A stretch of 64,000 nucleotides of DNA from the sequence record PP496998.1. One strand, written 5' to 3'. Of the stretch, positions 2,341 through 58,538 are shown in pieces. The position numbers and the translations under genes are program-made. The DNA is from Escherichia phage EC.W14-3. A model generated the notes under the pieces. That model did no database searches. It saw only the letters and a program-made list of their open reading frames with translations, and was not told the origin of the DNA. The number at the start of each line of letters is the position of its first letter. The first letter of the stretch is position 1.

Positions 2341-2997
2341 ATGAATGAACAACTACAAGCAACATTAATCGAAGCTATGGGAAGTGATCGTAGCGTAGTA
2401 AACGCAGCTCGAGTTTCCTTTGGCGTAACCCGTGAAGGTGATTTAAATGAACGTGATGAACGTCTCATCAACTTTCTCGCAAGAGAGAAGCATGTTACCC
2501 CATTCCGACACCCGCAAGTCAGTTTCCGATGCAAAGCACCTATCGCAATTGCGAGACAGCTGGGCAAGCATCAGGTTGGATTCTCGTGGAACGAAATGTC
2601 CCGGCGGTATAAAGATGGAGCAGTTGAAGTCTTCATCCCTAAAGAGATTTTTGCGAGACCTTCGGACCTCCATGCAGGTTCAGGGATTCAACTCATCGAC
2701 GGAGAGCGAGCTGAAGCATTAATGCTGATTAATGATGCATATGAAGCTTCTCTAGCAGCATATGACAAGTTGATTGAATTTATTGCACCAGAGCAGGCTC
2801 GATTTGTTCTTCCTCAGGGGATGATCACTGAGTGGGTGTGGACTGGTTCTTTGTATGGCTGGTTTGAGTTGTGCCGTCAGCGACTCTCCTCTCACGCTCA
2901 ATATGAAGTTCGAGTGTTTGCTAAATCTCTAGATGAAGAGATGGCTAAACTCTACCCAATCTCGTGGGCAGCTCTGAAGAAAACTTTGGAGAGTTAA
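2341..2997 (+). CDS. thyX: ThyX-like FAD-dependent thymidylate synthase family protein (variant signature)
   Basis: APIAIARQLGKHQVGFSWNEMSRRY aligns to ThyX [23 protein letters not shown]; canonical RHR replaced by KHQ. Confidence 0.65.
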   Translation: MNEQLQATLIEAMGSDRSVVNAARVSFGVTREGDLNERDERLINFLAREKHVTPFRHPQVSFRCKAPIAIARQLGKHQVGFSWNEMSRRYKDGAVEVFIPKEIFARPSDLHAGSGIQLIDGERAEALMLINDAYEASLAAYDKLIEFIAPEQARFVLPQGMITEWVWTGSLYGWFELCRQRLSSHAQYEVRVFAKSLDEEMAKLYPISWAALKKTLES

Positions 2998-2998
2998 A

Positions 2999-3247
2999 AT
3001 GGCTAGTAAAAGTATTTGGATTCTGAGTCGTGTTGAAGAGACAGACAGAGGGGAGTACACAGAAGTGCTTTGCTCTTTCATTACATACCCCACAAAACAA
3101 CAGCTTGAAGATGCTGGAGTAGAAATAAATCTTTCTCAATCTCTTTTTGATAAAAAGGTTTCCAAGTCAACAGCCCCATTCTTTGGTTATTACTACACAC
3201 TTGATAGTTTGGAGCTACTGATGAATGATTCTTGTTTGGAGAATTAA
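2999..3247 (+). CDS. hypothetical protein
   Basis: 82 aa ORF immediately after thyX-like gene. Confidence 0.4.
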   Translation: MASKSIWILSRVEETDRGEYTEVLCSFITYPTKQQLEDAGVEINLSQSLFDKKVSKSTAPFFGYYYTLDSLELLMNDSCLEN

Positions 3248-26801: not shown

Positions 26802-27836
26802 TTATTGTATACTCCTGAATATCTTTCTAGCATCTAATATTGGAATACTTAACCCGAGGGCACCACCCCCTCCTAAATCATATTGACTACTCCAAGAGTA
26901 AATCATCCTTCCGAAACCTGTACCGAAAGAAGAGCCATTCATCATGTGAGATCTTGTGTGTTGAAAATACCAACCACTAGCCTTGCCTCTTATTGCTCCT
27001 GCTCCGTAAGATAGTGGTATCATTGGATAGGCCAGAGATGTGTTACCGCCACTCATAGGCATAAATCCCTCAACACTAAAAGGGGTTCTATATGTAGAAA
27101 ATACACACTGAGACCCATTTGGAGAGAAGATATTTAAACCACCATTGTGGGTTGGTACTCCAGAACCATCACAGAAGACGGCAATTCTAACACCACCAAT
27201 GTATCCTGTTTGGTTTGTGTTACCATTATCATGAGACCTGTTCTGGTACACATAAACAACCCTATTGGATGGATTGTATAGCAGCCCTGCTCCACCGTTA
27301 CTCCAATTCGCGTAGACAGTTGCTCGGCTCATATCAAAACCACCAATATCTGGTATTTGAAGAGAACCATTTATGTCACCCTCCCAAGCCCAAATACATT
27401 GACCAACAACCCCAGAATCGGATATTGAGAAATAGTCAGCAGAGTTGGAGAATGTGATTCCATAATTCCTGTTAGCTCTAGGCCATATTTGATACACATT
27501 AAAAGCCATATCAAATACCCAACCGTTTACATTATAGTCCATAGTAACTCTGAAGGTTGAGTTATTAATAACAGATATATCCGTTATCCAATACACATCA
27601 GACGTTACGTTAGGAGGTATGTATCTCTCCCAAACAACAGACCCTGTTGGAACTACAACTATCTGACCACTACCATCCCAACCACTTATAGGCAAGTCAC
27701 AGGTATTTCCACTAAAAGAGAAATTCCCACTGACTCTATTTCTGAGTTGAGGGAATGTGCTACCACTATCGATGTAAATATCAGCAGGTGCCGCTGGACC
27801 CGGACCAACCGGGCGTGTCCATATTCCATATGCCAT
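26802..27836 (-). CDS. virion structural protein
   Basis: 344 aa, RBS GGGAG, in structural operon. Confidence 0.45.
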   Translation of the reverse strand: MAYGIWTRPVGPGPAAPADIYIDSGSTFPQLRNRVSGNFSFSGNTCDLPISGWDGSGQIVVVPTGSVVWERYIPPNVTSDVYWITDISVINNSTFRVTMDYNVNGWVFDMAFNVYQIWPRANRNYGITFSNSADYFSISDSGVVGQCIWAWEGDINGSLQIPDIGGFDMSRATVYANWSNGGAGLLYNPSNRVVYVYQNRSHDNGNTNQTGYIGGVRIAVFCDGSGVPTHNGGLNIFSPNGSQCVFSTYRTPFSVEGFMPMSGGNTSLAYPMIPLSYGAGAIRGKASGWYFQHTRSHMMNGSSFGTGFGRMIYSWSSQYDLGGGGALGLSIPILDARKIFRSIQ

Positions 27837-39680: not shown

Positions 39681-40739
39681 TTACGCCGCCACCTTTCCCG
39701 CAGCAGTGAACAGAACGCCGGAAGCATACGGGTTGCGGTGACGCAGACCAACTTCCATTTCAATCATCCACTTCTCGTAAGAACCGTCTTTAGCCAGTTC
39801 AGTACGTTTCGGAGCACGCAGAACCATCTGAGTCCAGTCAGCGCTACGGAAGAAGTAAACTGCATCGGTAGGCATCCAACGGTTAACGATGATTTTGTAG
39901 CTCTGGCCCAGCGGGTCAGTGATGCTGTTAACTTCGTAGATGAACTGCTTGGTGTTCTCAAAGATACGCTTACGTGAACCCTGAGTATTTTCTTGCAGAC
40001 CAGCAAAGATCTTAGCATGAGCCGGGTTAATCATGATGATATCTGCTTCAGAACCAGCGGTATACAGTTGCAGAGTCATATCAAAGATATCAGCTTCGTC
40101 GAAACCAATGTTAGTGGTCGGGTTAGAAGCATTCTGTGCAACTTTAACAGTTACTGCACCAGTGTCCGGGTCAGCAGGACCATTCTTGGTCTTGTCAACA
40201 ACGCCACCAGCCAGACCACCGTGAGCACACAGGAACTGGAATGCACCAGTCTTACGAGCTGCATGGGTGTCATTCAGACCAACAACAGCAGGATCAGTTG
40301 CAGAGTTAGTCAGATACTGGTCAGCCAGAACGTCGGTACGAGCCTGACCGGACAGAAGGATTTTCTCGAGGTCACGCTTGATCTCTTTACCTTTCTTCTC
40401 CAGCTGATACATCAGTTCACGACCACGACCGTAGTTAGCGGTGGTGTTAGCAGTATCAGAAACACGAACAACCTTACGCAGAATCTGAGTAACGTTAGAT
40501 TTGATAACAGTCGGTTTCATTTCACCGTCTTCAGCACGAGAGCCTTCGACGTGTGCGTTATTACCGTCAACGCTTGCCAGTGCATCGGTCTGCCAGCTAA
40601 AGATAGTCTGGTTGATAGACTCTTTACCGGTCATAGATACGAACGGGGTATCCTGAGGGGACAGAACAGAAATCCAGTTAGCAAAAGAAAGTTTTTTACC
40701 ATTCTGGTCATACGATACAAATAAAGTTGGATTAGCCAT
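39681..40739 (-). CDS. major capsid protein
   Basis: 352 aa, host-optimal codons, follows scaffold gene, own terminator downstream. Confidence 0.7.
   Translation of the reverse strand: MANPTLFVSYDQNGKKLSFANWISVLSPQDTPFVSMTGKESINQTIFSWQTDALASVDGNNAHVEGSRAEDGEMKPTVIKSNVTQILRKVVRVSDTANTTANYGRGRELMYQLEKKGKEIKRDLEKILLSGQARTDVLADQYLTNSATDPAVVGLNDTHAARKTGAFQFLCAHGGLAGGVVDKTKNGPADPDTGAVTVKVAQNASNPTTNIGFDEADIFDMTLQLYTAGSEADIIMINPAHAKIFAGLQENTQGSRKRIFENTKQFIYEVNSITDPLGQSYKIIVNRWMPTDAVYFFRSADWTQMVLRAPKRTELAKDGSYEKWMIEMEVGLRHRNPYASGVLFTAAGKVAA
39693..39699 (-). other. candidate -1 ribosomal frameshift slippery heptamer G_GGA_AAG
   Basis: minus-strand GGGAAAG in capsid zero frame (gcG GGA AAG) 12 codons before stop; same heptamer as lambda G-T frameshift site. 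Confidence 0.55.
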
Positions 40740-40780
40740 GTTATGTTAGCTCCTATACTATTAATAATTTAATTTGTCGA

Positions 40781-41857
40781 TTAATCTACGAGGAATTTGA
40801 ATGCGTCTTCGTGACTAACGCGACCCTCTGCGAATGCCTTGGCAACCTTAGCGTTGTCGGGCTTATTGGAAGTGCGAGACTTTGCAGCATCAGACTTCAC
40901 AACCTTGCGTGGAGCACCGGGACGTTTAATCTTAGCCATCACCTGTTGCTTACCTTTATCAAATTGGTATGCTTTGTGGAGAGCTAGGAAAATAGACGGA
41001 CGGTTTTCCTTCAATACTTCTTCTTCAGTAGCACCTAAGTCAATTGCGTATTGCATTAAGTTTTGATATAAGTTTTCATCCCAATTTGGAATCTCACGTT
41101 TCAGAATATTAACACATTCAATACTCTTGGCTTGGAAAGCTTCCTGCTCTTTAGCTGCTGCTTCCTGCTTAATACGGACCTGAGCCTGTTCAAGCTGTTG
41201 ACGGCGAGCTGTGTACTTCTCTAGGAAACGTTTGTTTTCAACATATGCTTGAGGATCTTCTACTGCAAGCTTGTCCCAATCAAAACCGTTATAATCTTCA
41301 ATTACTCGGTCTGCTTCTAAAGACGCTAGTTCTAATACATCCTTCAAACCTACTACACGTTCCTCGAATGCTTCCATATGACGCTGAAGAGTTGATTCTC
41401 GTTCTGTCATATCAGCACCAGTAAGATAGCCATTAGAAAGTTCTTCAATAGTCATCTCACGTCCATCAGGAAGGGTGATAACGGTTTCGTAGTCTACATC
41501 AAAGACTTCACCTTCACCGTCAGCAGAATCATCTTCATACTCTGCATCGCTTGAATCTTCTTCCTCTTGTTCTTCTGCTTCAGAGGATTCGTCTTCATCT
41601 TCTTCGACTTCGCCTTCCTCTTCACGATCTTCCCAACCATCTTCATCTTCGAACTTAAGCTCATCGCTTTCACCGAGAAGGTCGGTATCAAAGTCGAAAT
41701 CGTCACCGTCTTTTTCCGGGAACTCATCGTCAATGTCCACTTCTGGTTCTTGTTCAGATTCTAATCGACCGAGTTCTTCTTTGAAAGAACCTTTCAGGTC
41801 ATCCAGTTGGAGGAAAGATTTAAAATCGTTCGGGTCAATATAATTATCTTGTGGCAT
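40781..41857 (-). CDS. scaffolding protein
   Basis: 358 aa, highly acidic Glu/Asp tracts, between portal and capsid; RBS AGGAG. Confidence 0.55.
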   Translation of the reverse strand: MPQDNYIDPNDFKSFLQLDDLKGSFKEELGRLESEQEPEVDIDDEFPEKDGDDFDFDTDLLGESDELKFEDEDGWEDREEEGEVEEDEDESSEAEEQEEEDSSDAEYEDDSADGEGEVFDVDYETVITLPDGREMTIEELSNGYLTGADMTERESTLQRHMEAFEERVVGLKDVLELASLEADRVIEDYNGFDWDKLAVEDPQAYVENKRFLEKYTARRQQLEQAQVRIKQEAAAKEQEAFQAKSIECVNILKREIPNWDENLYQNLMQYAIDLGATEEEVLKENRPSIFLALHKAYQFDKGKQQVMAKIKRPGAPRKVVKSDAAKSRTSNKPDNAKVAKAFAEGRVSHEDAFKFLVD

Positions 41858-42093
41858 TATGAAACATCTCCTGCACTATTGATAGCAGCTTTTATGACCT
41901 CTTTTAAGCTACCAACCATTTTATACTTTTGATAACAATCTTCGCGTTTCTTATTCTCATGAGGTTCTGTTTGAACTATCTCTGTCATGAGTCTTTCTTT
42001 CAATGCCTCTAATGCTGCGTCAAGACTGCCGTTAAGGTTGAGAGCCGCCAAAGCGGCGGCGTGCTCTTTATTAAATTGATGTCTAATGTTCAT
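41857..42093 (-). CDS. hypothetical protein
   Basis: 78 aa between portal and scaffold genes. Confidence 0.4.
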   Translation of the reverse strand: MNIRHQFNKEHAAALAALNLNGSLDAALEALKERLMTEIVQTEPHENKKREDCYQKYKMVGSLKEVIKAAINSAGDVS

Positions 42094-42102
42094 TCGACGT
42101 CC

Positions 42103-44346
42103 TTAGTTTTTACTTCCAAGACGTTTGCCTGGAATCCGTGAATCTTTGAGAGAAGCTTGTTGCTCTTTCTTAGTTACATTAGCTTCTTTCTTTTGGAGTT
42201 CCAAAGTTTTATCCTGAACACGAGCTTGCTGAACAATCTTCTCTTGGTCTACCTGATGCTCCATAACCATCTGCAATTCTTTCAGTACAGACTCATACTG
42301 ACGGACCTGCTGTTGCATAAGAGCTAACTTGTGCTTAGCTTGTTCCAGAGTAGCATTGTTATCCTCTTTACGGTTTTCCAGAGTCATAGCATCTGCTGCA
42401 TTTTCTTGCTTGAACTGCAACTCTTCCTGACGCAGACTTAATTCATCCGCAGCTTTCTGCTGTTCGAATGTAGTACGTTCACGTTGGTCGAATGCATCAG
42501 CAATCATCTTCTGAGAAGAAGCCTGTACGTTCTCAACCTGTGCTTTAGTCATCTCGAGTTGGAGGATTTCCATTGGAGACGGCTCAGGAGGCTGATACTG
42601 TTCCAGAGGCAGTAAGTATTTATGAGTGTCCTTAATACCCATCAACTCAAAGATCTGTGCAGTCATGTAACGGTCTTGCTCCAAACCGAAGAGAGGTGCT
42701 AACTGTGCATCTGCTGCAATCAGCTGTTTCAAGCTAATCAGTTTCTGTGCACGTTCTGCTTTCTCATTAGGAGAGATAGCTACAACAACTTGAAGATTGT
42801 GACGAGCTGGCAATTGTTTCGGATTTACCTGAACCATACCACGAGGGGTTTGTACCTCAATAGGAACTTCACCATTTTCTCTGATAAGGCTGTAAATACC
42901 ACGCATCAATTCAACCATACCATTGTGAGCAATGTTACGACATACCATACGGAGACGGTTCTGTGCAGCATTCATCATCAAGCCTACAGTTGCATAAGCG
43001 TTATCATTCTTAAACACATCAGGGTTGATACCCATGCCTAGTTTGGTTACACCTGTACGTGTCTCTTTAAGCTCCTCAGACATGCCTAGGAGGCCGTCAA
43101 TACCTTGAGGTAGGTTATGGTATGGGAACAGGTCAATAGCGTCCTGACGTTCCATTTCAACCACTCCACCGGGACGGTTATCAAGCAGAGAGCGACGGTC
43201 GTATGCACCAACAAGAGCTTTGTATCGACCATAGTTAGCATTGTTGACGTTATCAATATAACCACGAACTAACGCGGTACGTAAATCTTGAATATCTTTC
43301 GTAATGTCATAGACCGATTGACCATAGAAGGAACCCGGAATCGGATATGGGCAGAAGGTTACAAACGGAATGTGAGTTACTTCTTCAGTGTGAAGGATAT
43401 GCTCACCAGCTTGGATAACCTGATAGAGTTTAGACTCTTTATTCTTATCTAGAACACCAGTACGAATGTAGTGCTCGTAAACCCAAACCATAGAAGCGAT
43501 ATCTTCGGTATCTGTACCAATATCAGCATCAATATCTTGACGCCAGTCAGTACGAGACCAAGCAACTGTAGATTGAGTAGTATCCATCGTGTCTGTCCAG
43601 TCGTTGAATGCTTCAATCTCATCTTTAGGGAAGCCCATAGCAACCAGATCTTCTTTAGAACGACGTACACGATGACAGAAGTATTGTGCATCTGCAAAAG
43701 AGGTAGCATGTTCATCAACAAAGATTTGCTCTGAAGGAACATATTCAACTTTCACACGTTTAACAGTTTGTTCGTAAGTAACTTTAACATCGACTGTACC
43801 GTCTTCATTTTCTTCAGTGAAGACTTCCAGATTCTTGAGTCCACCAGCTTCTAATCCCTGAACATATGCAGCCAATGCTTCCGGTGGTACACCTTCAGCT
43901 TCTTCAGTTTGAGTAGAAGTTTGTTCATCCCAATAATACTTGATAAAAGAGTTACGAGTAACTAGACATTCTTGTGCAGCAGAAGAGATAATATTGTATC
44001 CCGGATTATCACGCAGAAGAATTTGGTTAACTAATTTAGTTGCTACATCAGCAGCATCAGAATCCTGTTGGTTGTCAGCTACGAAAGTAACTGCTTCATC
44101 ACCAGAACAGAATACGTTAATAATATCTTGCAATGTACCGTTAACAGATTCCCAAACAGTACGATCTACCCAACTAGAGCTGCCAGCAGTTACTGGTGCA
44201 GGTAAGTTACCATAGAAATATTCCCAAGCTTCACGAGCATAGCCCTTAACAGCCATGTCCACGTAACCTTGAGCGTAATTAAAACGACGTTGAAGGTCAA
44301 CACGTAACTCGTCCAACACCTCTTCACTATATTTTTGCTTAGCCAT
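42103..44346 (-). CDS. portal protein
   Basis: 747 aa directly downstream of terminase large subunit; RBS GGGAGA. Confidence 0.7.
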   Translation of the reverse strand: MAKQKYSEEVLDELRVDLQRRFNYAQGYVDMAVKGYAREAWEYFYGNLPAPVTAGSSSWVDRTVWESVNGTLQDIINVFCSGDEAVTFVADNQQDSDAADVATKLVNQILLRDNPGYNIISSAAQECLVTRNSFIKYYWDEQTSTQTEEAEGVPPEALAAYVQGLEAGGLKNLEVFTEENEDGTVDVKVTYEQTVKRVKVEYVPSEQIFVDEHATSFADAQYFCHRVRRSKEDLVAMGFPKDEIEAFNDWTDTMDTTQSTVAWSRTDWRQDIDADIGTDTEDIASMVWVYEHYIRTGVLDKNKESKLYQVIQAGEHILHTEEVTHIPFVTFCPYPIPGSFYGQSVYDITKDIQDLRTALVRGYIDNVNNANYGRYKALVGAYDRRSLLDNRPGGVVEMERQDAIDLFPYHNLPQGIDGLLGMSEELKETRTGVTKLGMGINPDVFKNDNAYATVGLMMNAAQNRLRMVCRNIAHNGMVELMRGIYSLIRENGEVPIEVQTPRGMVQVNPKQLPARHNLQVVVAISPNEKAERAQKLISLKQLIAADAQLAPLFGLEQDRYMTAQIFELMGIKDTHKYLLPLEQYQPPEPSPMEILQLEMTKAQVENVQASSQKMIADAFDQRERTTFEQQKAADELSLRQEELQFKQENAADAMTLENRKEDNNATLEQAKHKLALMQQQVRQYESVLKELQMVMEHQVDQEKIVQQARVQDKTLELQKKEANVTKKEQQASLKDSRIPGKRLGSKN

Positions 44347-48664: not shown

Positions 48665-49537
48665 ATGTCTAAAGTAGCAATTAACCACTTGAACAAAGCA
48701 AACGAAAGCCTTTCCTCTTTAGGCTTAACCGTTGGTAGTCCTGATGCGTGGATGGAAAACGAAAGCGCACGTAAAGGATTCAAAAACTCTGTAATGCTGG
48801 CTTGCTTGATCATTAATTCTACTGCGAACGCCTTACAGTGTGAAGATGAAAGCACGTTCAAAGAGAATGGCTTTACCGATATACAGGACGCTATCAACTG
48901 TTACATTCAGGCAAATTTGGATAGCTGGAATCAGAAAGATTGGCCTGAGTCATGCCGTGATGTGAAAGCTGAATTATCCCGCTTGTCTGTCATGGTTGAA
49001 GCATGGAACAAGAAAAACAAGAAACAACCAATCAAGCCTACTGTTGCAAGTAAGATTATGAAGTCTGTTAATCTGGCAAGTTATGCACTGGTTGCAGCTA
49101 TCGGTGTTAGTGCACTGGTCACGTCTCTTTCTGATAAGGCTATCGCTAGTCCTGCTCCTGCAACTGATGCGGCTAGTGTCTTCTCTAGTTCCATCAATAA
49201 GGGTTGGATGATTTGCAACGGTGCGGATAGTGACGGCAATAATATCGTGCTAAAGATGAAATTTAGCAACGTAACAAATGATGGAGTTCTCTTTCAATCT
49301 AAAACGTTAGATAATCAGCCTAACAGTGATCTAGTTCTCAAGCGTACTGATAACGATGCGGATATGGTGACATTTGGCACTGTACAACGTTATGAAGACG
49401 TTAAAGCTGTAACCAACCTAGTGAGCTATGGCCCGATCAATGAGTCGATGATCGCCACCACGGTTTACAATAACGCTGATAATGCTGTTTATACTGTTCA
49501 CGTTAATTTAGCCAACTGCATTAAGGCTAGTAAGTAA
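48665..49537 (+). CDS. hypothetical protein with central hydrophobic segment
   Basis: 290 aa; RBS AAGGAA. Confidence 0.55.
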   Translation: MSKVAINHLNKANESLSSLGLTVGSPDAWMENESARKGFKNSVMLACLIINSTANALQCEDESTFKENGFTDIQDAINCYIQANLDSWNQKDWPESCRDVKAELSRLSVMVEAWNKKNKKQPIKPTVASKIMKSVNLASYALVAAIGVSALVTSLSDKAIASPAPATDAASVFSSSINKGWMICNGADSDGNNIVLKMKFSNVTNDGVLFQSKTLDNQPNSDLVLKRTDNDADMVTFGTVQRYEDVKAVTNLVSYGPINESMIATTVYNNADNAVYTVHVNLANCIKASK

Positions 49538-51489: not shown

Positions 51490-52305
51490 TAAACATTCTC
51501 CTATATCGGTTGAATATGTTAGATGATAATAACCATCGGATAACATACCAGATAAAACGGTGTAAGATTCTCTAAACTATCAGAGAAAACAATCTTATAA
51601 TCCCTTGCTGGAAACGTCACCACTGATAAACGGATTCATTGAGTGTACGCAAAGATTTAAGCTAATCGCCCACGGTTAAGGGTAGCGGCGGTCATCGCTA
51701 ACAAGGCGCTACAGTGAAAGAAGTTAATCAGGGTAGGCAAGCCCGAAGAATTAACGCTCAATTGAGAGCGGCGGGGAGTGGTTAAAAAGTGGCAAATTGC
51801 TATTTAACAATAAGGTTTAGTGTGAACGTTTACGATGTGAATGATTTGAGGCCACTATTGATGGCGTACATAGTCAGTTTATGTAGTAAACTTGCCGAAA
51901 GATATAAAACGTCAGAACATTAGACGGTCAATGACTCTTTCACAATAGCATCCCGTTGTGGGCGATGGCTAGTGATTGAGAGTTGATACAAAAGGATAGG
52001 CGAGAGCGAAAGCAAAGTAGACGATATTGCCGACGGTTACAATAAACGTAACTAATTAGAGTCGGACGCACTGCCTTATTGTGATGATTGATCATCGCTA
52101 TCAGGTCGGCTTCGTTTATAGCGACTAATTAAAGATACCAGATGAAACATCACGGATAAGGGGGCGGCAAGGTTAACTCCTGATAAGACCGCCCCGCTTA
52201 CCTATAACTACTTAACAACGAGTGGTTATAGTTAAGTTAATAGTGACTTAAACAAGCTCATAGAGAGCGGGGCAATAGCGCCCTTACAAGTGAAAGGTGA
52301 ATATC
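51490..52305 (+). other. ORF-free transcribed leader / candidate structured non-coding RNA
   Basis: about 0.8 kb with stops in all frames (longest ORF about 20 codons), repeated CACGGnTAAGGG and GAGCGGCGGGGAG blocks, hairpin agggggcgg...ccgcccc. Confidence 0.4.
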
Positions 52306-53205
52306 ATGGCTAAAATCTTTACTCTGGTTAACGAATCCGGTTTTAATGCTCTGGCTAACAACATTCGCAGTAATAACGCGGCGATCAAACAAGATGTTTC
52401 TAACTTCCTGTTAGGGCACTTACAGCACTTCCGCAGTAATGGTAAGAAGCTGGACGTATTGCAGTCGGCGGTTGACTTTCTGTTAACTGAACGTTTCCGT
52501 GATATGGATGTTATTGCCACTGCAATTACTTTCTTAACTCCTATCAAGTTTAACACCGATGCGGCAAATGGTCGTAAAAAGTGGATTAATCTGGAAGGTG
52601 AGGCGAAAGCTAAAGAAGACGCGAAAGAAGCGCAAATTAAAACCAAAATGGAACAAAACCGCGCTCGCTGGTCAAATGCTTTCGAGAATTTTGCTTTAGG
52701 CCGTGAAATTGAAGTTGATAATCCTAACTTTTACAAGGGTTGCAATGACAACGTGGCGGCACACCTGCAAATCCCGGCGAAAAACAAGGAAGATTTTAAT
52801 CAGGATATTTACGCTTTAGTTGAACGCTTGAATGCAATCCGTATTGAAGCCAAATTATTGGCTGATGAGCGCAATGGTGCTACCAGCGATAACACTATCG
52901 CCTTAAGTGAAGAAGTGGGCAAAGTTAAGAAGTCATTCGACTCGCTCATCAAGAAAGTCACGGCCTCAACGGTAGCGATCTCTGATAACTACCTGATGAA
53001 CGCATCAAGCAAGGAATTAGAATCACTCGATTCATACGCTGATGAAATGGAAAAGACTGTTGCAGCTATGCAGGAGAAGTTAGAAAGTCTGCGCGGTCGT
53101 ATCTCTTCAACGGTTGCTACCCGTACCGAACAAGCTGCGAAAGCAGAAGAGGAAGAAGTATTGCGTAAAGCGGCTGAAATTATGGCGGCACGTCAAGCGG
53201 CATAA
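52306..53205 (+). CDS. hypothetical protein (first gene after promoter/BoxA array)
   Basis: 299 aa from ATG 52306 with GGTG RBS; host-like codon usage; helical, Ala/Lys/Glu-rich C-terminus. Confidence 0.55.
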   Translation: MAKIFTLVNESGFNALANNIRSNNAAIKQDVSNFLLGHLQHFRSNGKKLDVLQSAVDFLLTERFRDMDVIATAITFLTPIKFNTDAANGRKKWINLEGEAKAKEDAKEAQIKTKMEQNRARWSNAFENFALGREIEVDNPNFYKGCNDNVAAHLQIPAKNKEDFNQDIYALVERLNAIRIEAKLLADERNGATSDNTIALSEEVGKVKKSFDSLIKKVTASTVAISDNYLMNASSKELESLDSYADEMEKTVAAMQEKLESLRGRISSTVATRTEQAAKAEEEEVLRKAAEIMAARQAA

Positions 53206-57177: not shown

Positions 57178-57299
57178 TTTAATAAAAGGCTGCCTAGAAA
57201 TAGGTGGCCTTTGTTGTTTTAATTAAGGGTCAACTCTTACTTAAACTAACAACGGGTGTATGGTATTGACAGGCATCGGCACGGAACTTGTTACCAACA

Positions 57300-57370
57300 A
57301 GGTTGGCGAATCAAGACCTCTGTGAAGCTCCGAAGAAATCAAGGCAGGTTCGACTCCTGCTCCCCGACCA
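57300..57370 (+). pseudogene. tRNA-like 3' fragment (T-arm plus acceptor-like end)
   Basis: GCAGG-TTCGACT-CCTGC T-arm then TCCCCGA-CCA; no matching 5' acceptor strand found. Confidence 0.25.
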
Positions 57371-57390
57371 AATCAGCAAGAGGTGCTTAT

Positions 57391-57744
57391 ATGAGAAGCA
57401 TGGTTAAAGATTGGGTAACTAAATCAGGTCTTCGTGCTGTGATTATGCACATGAACGACTCCCACTTTTGTGGATATGTAGAGCTACCAGACAGCTTAAA
57501 ACATAAAAACTTCACCGGATATAACGGGAATGAAGAAGTTTGTTATGTAAGTGTTCATGGTGGTGTCACATGGCAAGATACCCTTGAAGAGATGGATGGT
57601 TTAGATACAATCGGATTTGATTGTGCCCATGCAGGTGATAAGACACGGTTCAACCCTAACGGGGTTCCAAGAACAGAAACGTTCTGCATCAACGAATGCG
57701 AACAAATGGCTGAACAACTAAGAGATCTCGAATCAAATGTCTAA
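57391..57744 (+). CDS. hypothetical protein
   Basis: internal ATG after GAGG RBS; track N-terminal extension would span the tRNA-like element. Confidence 0.45.
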   Translation: MRSMVKDWVTKSGLRAVIMHMNDSHFCGYVELPDSLKHKNFTGYNGNEEVCYVSVHGGVTWQDTLEEMDGLDTIGFDCAHAGDKTRFNPNGVPRTETFCINECEQMAEQLRDLESNV

Positions 57745-57913
57745 GCAAACAATCAAACATACGCAAGCTGGTTACTCTTATATCAACTCTCCTTGTTGTG
57801 GTGCTCGTGTGAATCTGGTTAAGGAAGAGGTTCGTATCGTTCAGCGTGGCGCTACTGTTGTTCGTTCATGCTGTGTCTGTGGTAATGACATTTTTATCAA
57901 AGGTAAAGTATGA
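57737..57913 (+). CDS. small Cys-rich protein (58 aa)
   Basis: SPCCGARV...SCCVCGND; overlapping starts both sides; not in track. Confidence 0.35.
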   Translation: MSKQTIKHTQAGYSYINSPCCGARVNLVKEEVRIVQRGATVVRSCCVCGNDIFIKGKV

Positions 57914-58161
57914 AAAACTTCCAAGCTGCACCAATAACTAAAGTGATCGAAGTTGACGGTGTAATGATGACTGTTCCTCTGAACACTCGTTACATTGCAA
58001 TTGACAAGATGGGCTATGTATGGGCTTGGAAGATCAAGCCTAGTTATAACGCACTGTTTGATGAGTTTGTTTGTACTGGTACTTACAGTCCTACATTCTT
58101 GGGTTTATTTGGAGAGTTTGATGGTAAGCATAAAATCATCACTCTCCCTGCTTGTGCTTGA
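57910..58161 (+). CDS. hypothetical protein
   Basis: 83 aa ORF, ATGA overlap with upstream stop. Confidence 0.45.
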   Translation: MKNFQAAPITKVIEVDGVMMTVPLNTRYIAIDKMGYVWAWKIKPSYNALFDEFVCTGTYSPTFLGLFGEFDGKHKIITLPACA

Positions 58162-58168
58162 GGTTATT

Positions 58169-58333
58169 ATGTTCAAGTGGTTTAAACGTTTCTTCCATCT
58201 CCATGATTGGGAGACAATAAAAGAAATTCGTTTACACATATATAATGAGATTGGTCAAATAGAAGACACAGGTACTCGTTATATACTTCGATGTAAAACA
58301 TGTGGTCATATCACCAAGCGAGATATGATCTAA
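58169..58333 (+). CDS. small zinc-ribbon protein (54 aa)
   Basis: RCKTCGH; RBS GAGG; C-terminal part of track ORF 57995-58333. Confidence 0.4.
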   Translation: MFKWFKRFFHLHDWETIKEIRLHIYNEIGQIEDTGTRYILRCKTCGHITKRDMI

Positions 58334-58341
58334 ATAATTCT

Positions 58342-58417
58342 GCGCTCTTAGCTCAATGGATAGAGCAGTAGCCTTCTAAGCTATTGGTTACAGGTTCGAG
58401 TCCTGTAGGGCGCACCA
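58342..58417 (+). tRNA. tRNA-Arg (anticodon UCU)
   Basis: 76 nt cloverleaf: 7-bp acceptor GCGCTCT/AGGGCGC, D-arm GCTC-AATGGATA-GAGC, anticodon loop CTTCTAA, T-arm ACAGG-TTCGAGT-CCTGT, encoded CCA. Confidence 0.9.
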
Positions 58418-58423
58418 CATTTA

Positions 58424-58538
58424 GGGCTAGTATGGGTGCGGCACCAGAGTTAGTGTATCCCTGTTGAGGCAAGTGCTTTTATAACAGTGGGAATTACTTT
58501 CTTAGTGAGCTTCTGGTTCGATTCCAGATAGTCCACCA
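58424..58538 (+). other. tRNA-like element with consensus T-arm, non-canonical overall
   Basis: TCTGG-TTCGATT-CCAGA T-arm plus TAGTCCACCA end; 5' acceptor partner imperfect; about 105 nt. Confidence 0.25.

What the first reader, a model, noticed from the sequence alone, without database searches (positions are those of the whole stretch)
57300..58538. One intact tRNA-Arg(UCU) flanked by two tRNA-like fragments
58342-58417 folds as a canonical 76-nt tRNA with anticodon UCU (AGA/AGG are rare in E. coli-like hosts; T4 also carries this tRNA). Two other elements have consensus T-arms (GGTTCGA-type loops) and CCA-like ends but lack a proper acceptor partner: 57300-57370 and 58424-58538. They may be decayed tRNA genes, unusual tRNAs with insertions, or tRNA-derived structured RNAs.
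Basis: seen in the sequence. Interest (0 to 1): 0.4.

Follow-up and report, generated by a model that had tools for sequence, protein, structure and literature searches.

The report
Two phage tRNA-shaped small RNA genes
Next to a normal arginine tRNA gene, this E. coli phage carries two intact, unannotated genes for about 115-base RNAs that keep the top half of a tRNA but have a long hairpin where the anticodon should be; they resemble the still-unexplained "species 1" RNA of phage T4.

Summary
The tRNA-Arg(UCU) at 58342-58417 is real. The two flanking elements are also real, but they are not fragments.

- **E2 (58424-58538, 115 nt)** starts 6 nt after the tRNA's CCA. Its first six bases (GGGCUA) pair with UAGUCC just before an encoded ACCA.
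- **E1** is longer than reported: 57253-57370, 118 nt. Its 5' CGGG pairs with CCCG before ACCA.
- **Shared anatomy:** consensus T-arm, a UAUGG motif after the 5' strand, an 11-bp acceptor/T stack, and a ~57-nt irregular hairpin with no anticodon loop.
- **Known families:** ARAGORN and Rfam match neither element.
- **Acceptor ends:** E2's copies E. coli tRNA-Ala (G3:U70, A73). E1's copies tRNA-Pro (C1-G72, A73).
- **Distribution:** both are clean insertions relative to sibling phages. E2 stays 97-100% identical while its flanks are replaced. E1 is 93-94% identical, with exact boundaries, in the distant Salmonella phage 7-11.
- **Closest known thing:** T4 places tRNA-Arg(UCU), rnaD and rnaC in the same order, and rnaC has the same acceptor/T-arm-plus-body design.

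Best reading: these are tRNA-mimic stable RNAs processed by host tRNA enzymes. What they do is inferred only; I favour acceptor-end mimicry or decoy. This is a new variant of a known but unexplained kind.

The parts
58342..58417 (+). tRNA-Arg, anticodon UCU, with encoded CCA; canonical 7+5 bp acceptor/T stack
   Evidence: ARAGORN; Rfam RF00005 72.4 bits; cloverleaf drawn
58418..58423 (+). 6-nt spacer CAUUUA between the tRNA-Arg CCA and the first base of E2; inferred RNase P cut after A58423
   Evidence: Sequence. The spacer differs (AUUUUAAACAA) where E2 follows another tRNA-Arg allele.
58424..58538 (+). E2: 115-nt tRNA-shaped RNA gene. Absent as a clean 121-nt indel (58418-58538) from sibling phage EcM-vB1.
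58424..58429 (+). E2 acceptor 5' strand GGGCUA; G58426 forms the G3:U70 wobble with U58532
   Evidence: Sequence; constrained fold. Equals E. coli alaV GGGGCUA minus one G.
58433..58446 (+). E2 D-arm-like hairpin UGG-GURCGGCA-CCA holding the GG elbow motif; the variable site G/A at 58438 lies in its loop
58447..58503 (+). E2 57-nt irregular hairpin in place of the anticodon arm; apical 4-nt loop AAGU/GAGU, so no anticodon loop
   Evidence: Constrained fold. Variable sites 58471 (apical loop) and 58496 (A-U to G.U) are structure-neutral.
58512..58528 (+). E2 T-arm UCUGG-UUCGAUU-CCAGA
58529..58538 (+). E2 acceptor 3' strand UAGUCC, discriminator A, CCA. There are only 6 nt between T-stem and A73, giving an 11-bp stack.
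57253..57370 (+). E1: 118-nt tRNA-shaped RNA gene; the true extent is 47 nt longer at the 5' side than reported. The insertion relative to KBNP1711 is 57253-57379.
   Evidence: Conservation block with phages 7-11 and SeKF_80; indel; the unconstrained MFE is the tRNA-like fold
57253..57256 (+). E1 acceptor 5' strand CGGG (then U.C mismatch and G.U), pairing with 57363-57366; followed by UAUGG (57259-57263)
   Evidence: Same first three pairs and A73 as E. coli proM.
57276..57333 (+). E1 58-nt irregular hairpin in place of the anticodon arm, with a triloop (AAG here, GUA in 7-11)
   Evidence: C57280U and C57282U keep pairing as U.G; three substitutions are confined to the triloop.
57343..57361 (+). 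E1 T-arm (G)GCAGG-UUCGACU-CCUGC(U). Pair 57345/57359 is C-G here and U-A in 7-11 and SeKF_80.
57362..57370 (+). E1 acceptor 3' strand (C)CCCG, discriminator A, CCA
57185..57212 (+). Intrinsic-terminator-like hairpin plus T-run, 40 nt upstream of E1; conserved in relatives that lack E1

Best explanation
E1 (57253-57370) and E2 (58424-58538) are intact genes for tRNA-mimic small RNAs. They are not tRNA remnants.

**Shown in the sequence.**
- Each keeps the upper half of a tRNA: an acceptor stem closed by the molecule's own 5' and 3' ends, a consensus T-arm, a U-A-U-G-G stretch that can supply the G18-G19 elbow contact, discriminator A73, and an encoded CCA.
- In each, the anticodon arm is replaced by a ~57-nt irregular hairpin ending in a 3-4-nt loop. 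They therefore cannot decode.

**Inferred.**
- They lie in the sigma70-transcribed early region, on the same strand as the genes. Host RNase P would cut them out at the 5' end and 3' trimming would stop at CCA. This is how T4 species 1 RNA is released from the tRNA-Arg cluster.
- Their acceptor ends copy specific host tRNAs. E2 copies tRNA-Ala (G1-C72, G2-C71, G3:U70, A73), so it is probably a substrate for alanyl-tRNA synthetase. E1 copies tRNA-Pro (C1-G72, G2-C71, G3-C70, A73).
- Most likely mode of action: they occupy or divert a host factor that reads tRNA acceptor ends or elbows. Candidates are a tRNA-directed defence enzyme, a synthetase, or a processing or CCA-end enzyme.
- They appear to be dispensable accessory modules that move between phages.
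For: **Anatomy**
- The T-arm + N9 + ACCA pattern occurs only in E1 and E2, against 0.00 expected by chance.
- E2 begins 6 nt after the tRNA-Arg CCA.
- No tRNA, tmRNA or other Rfam model fits either element.

**Selection and modularity**
- E2 is 97-100% identical in 7 phages. Its flanking ORFs are 30-100% identical and the upstream tRNA is 46-50% identical in two of them.
- E2 has 4 variable sites, all structure-neutral.
- In E1, all 31 modelled pairs are kept in 4 variants. There is one compensatory T-stem pair, two C-G to U.G changes, and three changes in the triloop.
- Both are clean indels relative to sibling phages.
- The E1 block is bounded exactly at its 5' end and at CCA+A in the unrelated Moazamivirus phages.

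**Mimicry**
- Both ends of E2 equal E. coli alaV minus one base pair. E1's ends match proM over the first three pairs plus ACCA.

**Analogy**
- T4 has tRNA-Arg(UCU), then rnaD, then rnaC.
- The rnaC acceptor stem and T-stem covary across T4-like phages, and they enclose a ~100-nt body.
- rnaC and rnaD are expressed RNAs of unknown function (PMC3014915; PMC9697503).
- A convergent SNP in rnaD arose during adaptation to a semi-permissive host (PMC12685909).

**Similar long tRNA-like RNAs elsewhere**
- RNAs with GGGCGU/ACGUCC-ACCA ends sit inside large phage tRNA arrays (10-26 tRNA genes where the contig is long enough). They have 8 compensatory pairs, with 0 of 500 shuffles reaching that.
- None with a 5' acceptor partner was found among 185,579 bacterial and archaeal genomes.

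**Region:** early genes, sigma70-transcribed (PMC4281155).
Against: - There is no expression, processing or charging data for E1 or E2.
- Thermodynamic stability is unremarkable: E1 z=-0.04, E2 z=-1.96.
- Covariation in E1 rests on a single compensatory pair and is not significant alone (102 of 500 shuffles). E2 has none.
- The 11-bp rather than 12-bp acceptor/T stack may weaken RNase P or EF-Tu recognition.
- E1 sits just downstream of a terminator-like hairpin with no predicted promoter.
- Both elements are absent from most relatives. E2 is in 29 records and E1 in 4, out of ~123 records matching the region, so they are dispensable.
- The decoy target is unknown. The decoy step is inference only.
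Confidence: 0.6

Rival explanations
1. E1 and E2 are functionless tRNA-derived relics that are copied around passively. The tRNA-Arg locus is a recombination hot spot driven by homing endonucleases, and the elements hitch-hike there.
For: - Distribution is sporadic.
- An HNH endonuclease gene occupies the E2 site in phage Paul, and a homing endonuclease gene abuts the tRNA in Bas91.
- TH42 has scrambled tRNA pieces upstream of E2.
- Folding energies are unremarkable.
Against: - E2 is more conserved than everything around it, and it stays intact where the neighbouring tRNA is replaced or broken.
- All 12 substitutions in E1 and E2 are structure-neutral.
- The E1 block shared between two phage families stops exactly at the RNA's ends.
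- Acceptor, T-arm, GG motif and CCA are all intact.
Confidence: 0.15
2. They are purely cis-acting 'punctuation' signals. The tRNA-like shape recruits RNase P to cut the early polycistronic transcript and set the 5' end or stability of the downstream mRNA, and the released RNA has no role of its own.
For: Both lie between ORFs on the coding strand. The next ribosome-binding site is within about 20 nt of the CCA. E1 follows a terminator hairpin in both phage families.
Against: - A minimal acceptor/T minihelix would be enough for this. The ~57-nt bodies are nevertheless almost invariant.
- The downstream genes differ between carriers. In pEC-N1203 E1 precedes a different ORF, and E2 precedes different ORFs in UKE3, TH42 and SR02.
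- Sibling phages express the same downstream genes without the elements.
Confidence: 0.1
3. E2 is a miniature tmRNA-like ribosome-rescue or competitor RNA. It would be alanylated through G3:U70 and enter stalled ribosomes, or it would titrate SmpB or AlaRS.
For: It has G3:U70, A73 and CCA, a T-arm, a reduced D region, and a long helix where tmRNA has helix 2. The group-A model scores E2 best in the window (24 bits).
Against: - There is no hit to any Rfam tmRNA model, including the reduced mitochondrial type, at E<=10.
- ARAGORN tmRNA search is negative.
- There is no resume codon, tag frame or pseudoknots.
- The same model gives ordinary tRNAs up to 22 bits.
- E1 has no G3:U70.
Confidence: 0.05
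4. They are unusual decoding tRNAs, carrying an intron or a giant insertion that is removed or tolerated.
For: Acceptor, T-arm and CCA are intact, and E2 has a D-arm-like hairpin.
Against: - ARAGORN intron mode (0-200 nt) and relaxed thresholds find only spurious overlapping calls, none spanning E1 or E2 from acceptor end to acceptor end.
- The Rfam tRNA model gives no hit.
- The apical loops are 3-4 nt, so there is no 7-nt anticodon loop.
- From established knowledge: bacterial and phage tRNA introns are group I and longer than 200 nt.
Confidence: 0.03
5. E1 is protein-coding. A GTG at 57256 opens a frame that runs through E1 into the 57391 ORF, and automated annotations call a CDS over E1 in two records.
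For: An open frame 57256-57744 exists. CDS calls overlap E1 in pEC-N1203 and SeKF_80.
Against: - There is no Shine-Dalgarno sequence before the GTG.
- The PHROG family match starts at the ATG-encoded Met, and the 45-aa extension matches nothing.
- The ATG ORF has its own RBS and exists without E1 in KBNP1711.
- In 7-11 the frame stops right after CCA, and 3 of 5 changed codons are nonsynonymous.
Confidence: 0.02

Closest known systems
Phage T4 species 1 RNA (rnaC), with species 2 RNA (rnaD): small stable RNAs of the T4 tRNA gene cluster
   Same: - The gene order is the same: tRNA-Arg(UCU) is followed directly by the small RNA(s) on the same strand.
- rnaC is closed by an acceptor stem made from its own two ends and has a consensus T-arm. 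Both are supported by covariation. They enclose a long non-tRNA body dominated by an irregular hairpin.
- rnaC also has an A-G-G just after the 5' strand.
- Not in Rfam, mostly unannotated, function unknown.
   Different: - There is no detectable sequence homology. BLAST with rnaC finds only T4-like phages, and the alignment shows only the T-loop in common.
- rnaC is 139 nt, has a canonical 7+5 bp stack and no encoded CCA. E1 and E2 are 115-118 nt, have an 11-bp stack and an encoded ACCA.
- rnaD has no T-arm.
- E1 is not adjacent to a tRNA.
- rnaC/rnaD are classed as late RNAs in T4, whereas E1 and E2 lie in the early region.
Metagenomic 'group A' long tRNA-like RNAs inside large phage tRNA arrays (L004, L011, L017/L019, L025, L035)
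   Same: - 111-122 nt long.
- GGGC.../...GUCC-A-CCA ends with G3:U70, as in E2.
- UAUGGUG directly after the 5' strand, an 11-bp stack, and a same-strand position among tRNA genes.
- The loop motif UGUGAAG is shared with E1.
- The group-A covariance model finds E2 full-length as the top hit in the window (24 bits).
   Different: - The body has three short hairpins rather than one long one.
- The model also scores ordinary tRNAs at 15-22 bits, so specific kinship is unproven.
- These elements were retrieved with a pattern that required GTATGG and the N9-ACCA spacing, so those two shared features hold by construction.
tmRNA tRNA-like domain
   Same: An alanine-type acceptor (G3:U70, A73, CCA), a T-arm, a reduced D region, and a long helix replacing the anticodon arm (E2 only).
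   Different: There is no mRNA-like domain, tag frame or pseudoknots. All tmRNA models and ARAGORN are negative. The acceptor is 6 bp, not 7.
Host tRNA-Ala(UGC) and tRNA-Pro(UGG) of E. coli
   Same: E2's acceptor strands are alaV's minus one base pair, and the T-loop is nearly the same. E1 shares C1-G72, G2-C71, G3-C70 and ACCA with proM.
   Different: There is no cloverleaf and no anticodon. The Rfam tRNA model is negative. BLAST finds no match in 5,426 E. coli genomes.

Membership tests
Canonical tRNA (Rfam RF00005 / ARAGORN) | Cloverleaf scoring above the family threshold | tested here: not met
   58342-58417 scores 72.4 bits. E1 and E2 give no hit even at E<=10. ARAGORN is negative in default, intron and relaxed modes.
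Canonical tRNA (Rfam RF00005 / ARAGORN) | 7-nt anticodon loop on a 5-bp stem | tested here: not met
   The arm is a ~57-nt hairpin with a 3-nt (E1) or 4-nt (E2) apical loop.
Canonical tRNA (Rfam RF00005 / ARAGORN) | Acceptor stem + T-arm + discriminator + CCA | tested here: met
   Met, but the stack is 11 bp rather than 12 bp.
T4 species 1 RNA (rnaC) type stable RNA | Encoded in or next to a phage tRNA cluster, same strand, downstream of tRNA-Arg(UCU) | tested here: met
   E2 lies 6 nt after tRNA-Arg(UCU). In T4, rnaD lies 1 nt after tRNA-Arg and rnaC follows. E1 is 0.97 kb upstream of the tRNA and not adjacent to it.
T4 species 1 RNA (rnaC) type stable RNA | Acceptor stem formed by the RNA's own ends, plus a consensus T-arm, enclosing a long non-tRNA body | tested here: met
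   E1 and E2. rnaC: covariation.
T4 species 1 RNA (rnaC) type stable RNA | Sequence homology to rnaC | tested here: not met
   The alignment shows only the T-loop in common. blastn with rnaC finds 751 records, the listed ones T4-like phages and none a relative of this window's phage.
T4 species 1 RNA (rnaC) type stable RNA | Accumulates as a stable processed RNA in infected cells | not testable with these tools
   Needs Northern blots or small-RNA sequencing.
tmRNA | Alanine-identity acceptor (G3:U70, A73) with T-arm | tested here: met
   E2 only. E1 has G3-C70.
tmRNA | mRNA-like domain with resume codon, tag frame and stop, plus pseudoknots; match to tmRNA models | tested here: not met
   No Rfam tmRNA-clan hit at E<=10. 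ARAGORN tmRNA search is negative.
Metagenomic group A tRNA-array RNA | Significant, specific match to the group's covariance model | tested here: inconclusive
   E2 scores 24 bits, E~1e-4, full length, and is the top hit in the window. Ordinary tRNAs score up to 22 bits with the same model. E1 scores 6.9 bits.
Phage attachment-site tRNA fragment (attP) | Only the 3' part of a host tRNA, identical to the host gene, next to an integrase | tested here: not met
   Both elements have their own 5' acceptor strand. There is no BLAST match in 5,426 E. coli genomes. The presence of an integrase was not searched for.

The most novel reading that the evidence does not exclude
E1, E2, T4 species 1 RNA and the elements found in large phage tRNA arrays would together form one widespread, unrecognised class of mobile phage RNAs. 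Each copies the acceptor identity of a particular host tRNA (Ala, Pro, Leu-like) on an anticodon-less body. They would act as decoys or antidotes against host enzymes that attack or read tRNA acceptor ends and elbows. The exact-boundary transfer of E1 between phage families would reflect movement of the RNA unit itself.
Probability: 0.15. Interest if true: 0.85.

Novelty: new variant of a known kind. Interest (0 to 1): 0.55.

Why it matters
T4's species 1 and 2 RNAs have been known since the 1970s, and recent papers still describe them as being of unknown function.

Finding the same design in an unrelated podophage suggests this is a general phage device rather than a T4 oddity. That design is a tRNA upper half with a long hairpin, placed directly after tRNA-Arg(UCU). 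Here the acceptor ends copy host tRNA-Ala and tRNA-Pro, and covarying analogues sit in large phage tRNA arrays.

It also gives tractable test material. Natural sibling phages differ by clean presence or absence of E1 or E2.

All 29 GenBank records that carry E2 leave it unannotated. Two records annotate a spurious protein over E1.

Tried and rejected
- **ARAGORN with introns (0-200 nt) and an 80% threshold** gave only spurious overlapping calls.
- **Rfam at E<=10** on the region, and on T4, 7-11 and two metagenomic loci, placed neither E1/E2 nor rnaC/rnaD in any family.
- **blastn of E1 and E2 against 5,426 E. coli genomes** found no match. At that database size the test only excludes matches of roughly 25 nt or more.
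- **Search for antisense or sense repeats of E1/E2 within the window** found a longest match of 11-13 nt, no better than shuffles.
- **E1 as a coding extension** was rejected.
GGUUGG at 57301 could pair with CCGACC. I rejected this because the conserved block starts 48 nt upstream, and because GGUUGG pairs with CCAAC around the variable triloop.
- **My first guess that the phage was N4-like was wrong.** It is phiEco32-like (Gordonclarkvirinae).
- **Group-A covariance model as proof of kinship with E2** was downgraded, because ordinary tRNAs score nearly as well.
- **A bacterial and archaeal genome scan with the structural pattern** gave 13 hits, none with a 5' acceptor partner.
- **blastn of the metagenomic elements against GenBank phages** found nothing.
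Full report
**Context.** The window is 100% identical over this region to Escherichia phages EC.W2-6 and EC.W8-1. It belongs with the phiEco32-like, C3-morphotype podophages: Gordonclarkvirinae, including Kuravirus, Nieuwekanaalvirus and Suseptimavirus. By homology to phage SU10, the region lies in the early gene block transcribed by host sigma70 RNA polymerase (PMC4281155). The flanking small ORFs all match phage protein families of unknown function, one of them a phage lipoprotein.

**The tRNA.** 58342-58417 is a canonical 76-nt tRNA-Arg(UCU) with encoded CCA. AGA is used at 12.3 per 1000 codons, 23.9% of Arg codons, across 86 crudely called ORFs in the window. In E. coli, from general knowledge, it is only a few percent of Arg codons. 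The codon-supply reading is therefore reasonable. Several large ORFs nevertheless contain no AGA or AGG at all.

**E2.**
- It starts 6 nt after the tRNA's CCA.
- Its first six bases, GGGCUA, pair with UAGUCC. These are followed by A and CCA (58535-58538). The third pair is G58426:U58532.
- The T-arm is UCUGG-UUCGAUU-CCAGA.
- After the 5' strand comes G-U-A, then a D-arm-like hairpin containing GG.
- Next is a 57-nt irregular hairpin capped by a 4-nt loop, then an 8-nt linker.
- Only 6 nt separate the T-stem from the discriminator. The acceptor/T stack is therefore 11 bp, against 12 bp in the neighbouring tRNA.

The statement that an acceptor partner is missing is wrong.

**E1.**
- Comparison with Salmonella phages 7-11 and SeKF_80 (Grimontviridae, Moazamivirus) and with coliphage pEC-N1203-2Af.1 shows a conserved block that begins at A57252/C57253 and ends at CCA+A (57371). 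The flanks in the Salmonella phages are unrelated.
- The unconstrained minimum-energy fold of 57253-57370 is tRNA-like. CGGG pairs with CCCG ahead of ACCA. There is a 58-nt irregular hairpin (57276-57333) with a triloop, a 9-nt linker and a T-arm GCAGG-UUCGACU-CCUGC.
- The stack is again 11 positions, and UAUGG again follows the 5' strand.

**Chance.** GGTTCGANTCC-N9-ACCA occurs only at E1 and E2 in 64 kb, against 0.00 expected. The T-arm core occurs three times against 0.20 expected.

**Not any described family.**
- ARAGORN finds nothing that spans either element, even with introns and relaxed thresholds.
- Rfam 15 gives no hit at E<=10.
- There is no 7-nt anticodon loop, so these RNAs cannot decode.
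- E1 overlaps an open frame that runs into the next gene. The protein-family match starts at that gene's own ATG, the 45-residue extension matches nothing, and there is no ribosome-binding site. In 7-11 the frame ends right after CCA.

**Conservation and distribution.**
- E2 occurs in 29 GenBank phage records at 97.5% identity or more, unannotated in all of them. About 123 records match the surrounding 1.5 kb.
- Across seven phages only 4 of 115 positions vary: a D-loop purine, the purine after the D-arm, the apical loop, and an A-U to G.U change.
- In the same phages the flanking ORFs are 30-100% identical. In Bas91 and TH42 the upstream tRNA-Arg is a different allele (46-50% identity) with a different spacer.
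- In TH42, an unverified record, no intact tRNA is called upstream, yet E2 is intact.
- EcM-vB1 has the same tRNA-Arg followed directly by the sequence that follows E2 here. E2 plus its spacer is therefore a clean 121-nt indel bounded by the two CACCA ends.
- Phage Paul has an HNH endonuclease gene at that position.
- E1 occurs in only four Gordonclarkvirinae records and three Moazamivirus records. KBNP1711 lacks it as a clean indel between CTAACAA and the GAGGTG ribosome-binding site.
- All eight variable E1 positions fit the fold. Two are C-G to U.G changes, three lie in the triloop, one is a compensatory C-G to U-A pair in the T-stem, and one lies in the T-loop.

Caveats on this evidence: with four sequences the E1 covariation is not significant on its own (102 of 500 shuffles). 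The folding energies are also not exceptional (E1 z=-0.04, E2 z=-1.96).

- E2's GGGCUA...AUAG-UCCACCA equals alaV's GGGGCUA...AUAGCUCCACCA with one base pair removed. G3:U70 and A73 are kept.
- E1's CGG...CCGACCA matches proM's first three pairs, A73 and CCA.
- From established knowledge, G3:U70 with A73 is the main identity element for alanyl-tRNA synthetase, and it works on minihelices and on tmRNA. C1-G72 and A73 are acceptor-end features of E. coli tRNA-Pro.
- Whether E2 is charged is an inference.

**Closest known thing.**
- In T4, tRNA-Arg(UCU) is followed after 1 nt by rnaD (species 2, 119 nt) and then by rnaC (species 1, 139 nt).
- Aligning rnaC from T4 with three Karamvirus phages shows a compensatory change in a stem made by the RNA's two ends: CGAUUCG/CGUUUCG against CGGUUCG/CGUUCCG. 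It also shows three covarying versions of the T-stem.
- The rnaC fold is acceptor, long irregular hairpin, second hairpin, T-arm (z=-4.6).
- This is the same design as E1 and E2, and the same position relative to tRNA-Arg(UCU) as E2.
- There is no sequence homology. rnaC has a 12-bp stack and no encoded CCA.
- rnaC and rnaD are not in Rfam. Reviews and recent papers still call them RNAs of unknown function. One evolution experiment found the same rnaD SNP in all lines adapting to a semi-permissive host.

**Further relatives by design.**
- A pattern built from the features shared by E1 and E2 (GTATGG, 70-100 nt, T-arm, N9, ACCA) was run on IMG/VR and on metagenomes.
- It retrieved a family of 111-122-nt RNAs with GGGCGU/ACGUCC-ACCA ends, which again give G3:U70. 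They lie inside large phage tRNA arrays on the tRNA strand (10-26 tRNA genes where the contig is long enough). They have eight compensatory pairs (0 of 500 shuffles).
- It also retrieved a second family with a tRNA-Leu-like D-arm.
- End-anchored patterns that did not require GTATGG found more long tRNA-like RNAs with Ala-type or Pro-type ends. Some carry UA(A)(U)GG after the 5' strand.
- The same structural pattern in 185,579 bacterial and archaeal genomes gave 13 hits, none with a 5' acceptor partner.
- A covariance model of the first family finds E2, full length, as the best hit in the window (24 bits). It also gives ordinary tRNAs up to 22 bits, so specific kinship is unproven.

**How it most likely works.**
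- Shown: two closed, discrete, conserved tRNA-upper-half RNAs without anticodons. They are embedded co-directionally among early genes, one directly behind a tRNA.
- Inferred from what is known of tRNA processing and of T4 species 1: RNase P releases the 5' end, exonucleases trim to CCA, and the tRNA-like top confers stability.
- Inferred from the acceptor ends: E2 is recognised, and perhaps alanylated, by AlaRS, and E1 presents a tRNA-Pro-like end.
- The role I consider most likely is mimicry or decoy of tRNA acceptor ends or elbows toward a host factor. This fits the accessory, patchy, horizontally moving distribution, but it has no direct support.
- The rivals are passive relics, pure processing signals, a mini-tmRNA, odd decoding tRNAs, and coding sequence. 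Each is weighed in its own section.

**Verdict.** The 'fragment' reading is wrong, and the 'tRNA-derived structured RNA' reading is right. This is a new variant of the poorly understood T4 species 1 kind of RNA. It is worth experimental follow-up, because natural plus/minus sibling phages exist.

Noticed in passing
L061 (Escherichia virus TH42, MT446413, unverified record) 11-140, upstream of its E2 copy: No tRNA is called there. The sequence has GGGGGUU...AACCCCC ends, a CU-UCU-AA loop, a T-arm, almost no D-arm and a long extra region. A 3' piece of the Bas91-type tRNA-Arg follows, in which the anticodon region reads UUUU. It looks like scrambled or non-canonical tRNA-Arg genes at a recombination hot spot.
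   Followed up: partly
L004 3555-3631 (IMG/VR contig with 19 tRNA genes): A 77-nt tRNA-like sequence with GGGCUGG/CUAGUCC-ACCA ends (G3:U70) that ARAGORN does not call. It gives a weak Rfam tmRNA hit (19.6 bits). It is another alanine-type tRNA mimic in the array that also holds a group-A element.
   Followed up: no
L093 1911-1933 (IMG/VR contig of 90,427 bp): An exact 23-nt copy of the E1 body segment AAGACCUCUGUGAAGCUCCGAAG (window 57313-57335), in an otherwise unrelated stretch with only short ORFs and no tRNA-like frame. It may be a shared functional motif. The related UGUGAAG also sits in the conserved loop of the group-A RNAs.
   Followed up: partly
L007 2124-2636 (phage Paul) and L060 1-74 (phage Bas91): Homing or HNH endonuclease genes sit immediately next to the tRNA-Arg gene. 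In Paul the gene is exactly where E2 lies in the window. In T4, segB likewise sits beside tRNA-Arg (L005 1754-2419).
   Followed up: partly
window 39681-44346, 48665-49537 and 52306-53205: Several large ORFs contain no or almost no AGA/AGG (0 of 16, 0 of 17 and 1 of 39 Arg codons). Others use them heavily, for example 26802-27836 with 15 of 17. Rare-Arg codon use is therefore strongly gene-specific in this phage.
   Followed up: no
window 57185-57212; L001 about 2975-3005: In both phage families E1 sits just downstream of a terminator-like hairpin: 40 nt away in the window and about 8 nt away in phage 7-11. No sigma70-like promoter was predicted between the hairpin and E1.
   Followed up: partly
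L078 197-340 (pEC-N1203-2Af.1) and L079 155-316 (SeKF_80): Automated annotations place 'hypothetical protein' CDSs over the E1 RNA. These are probably false gene calls.
   Followed up: yes
window 51558-51622: A weak hit of the group-A RNA model (11.8 bits, E=0.36), with CGGUGU...AACGUC-ACCA ends and one hairpin. It is probably chance.
   Followed up: no
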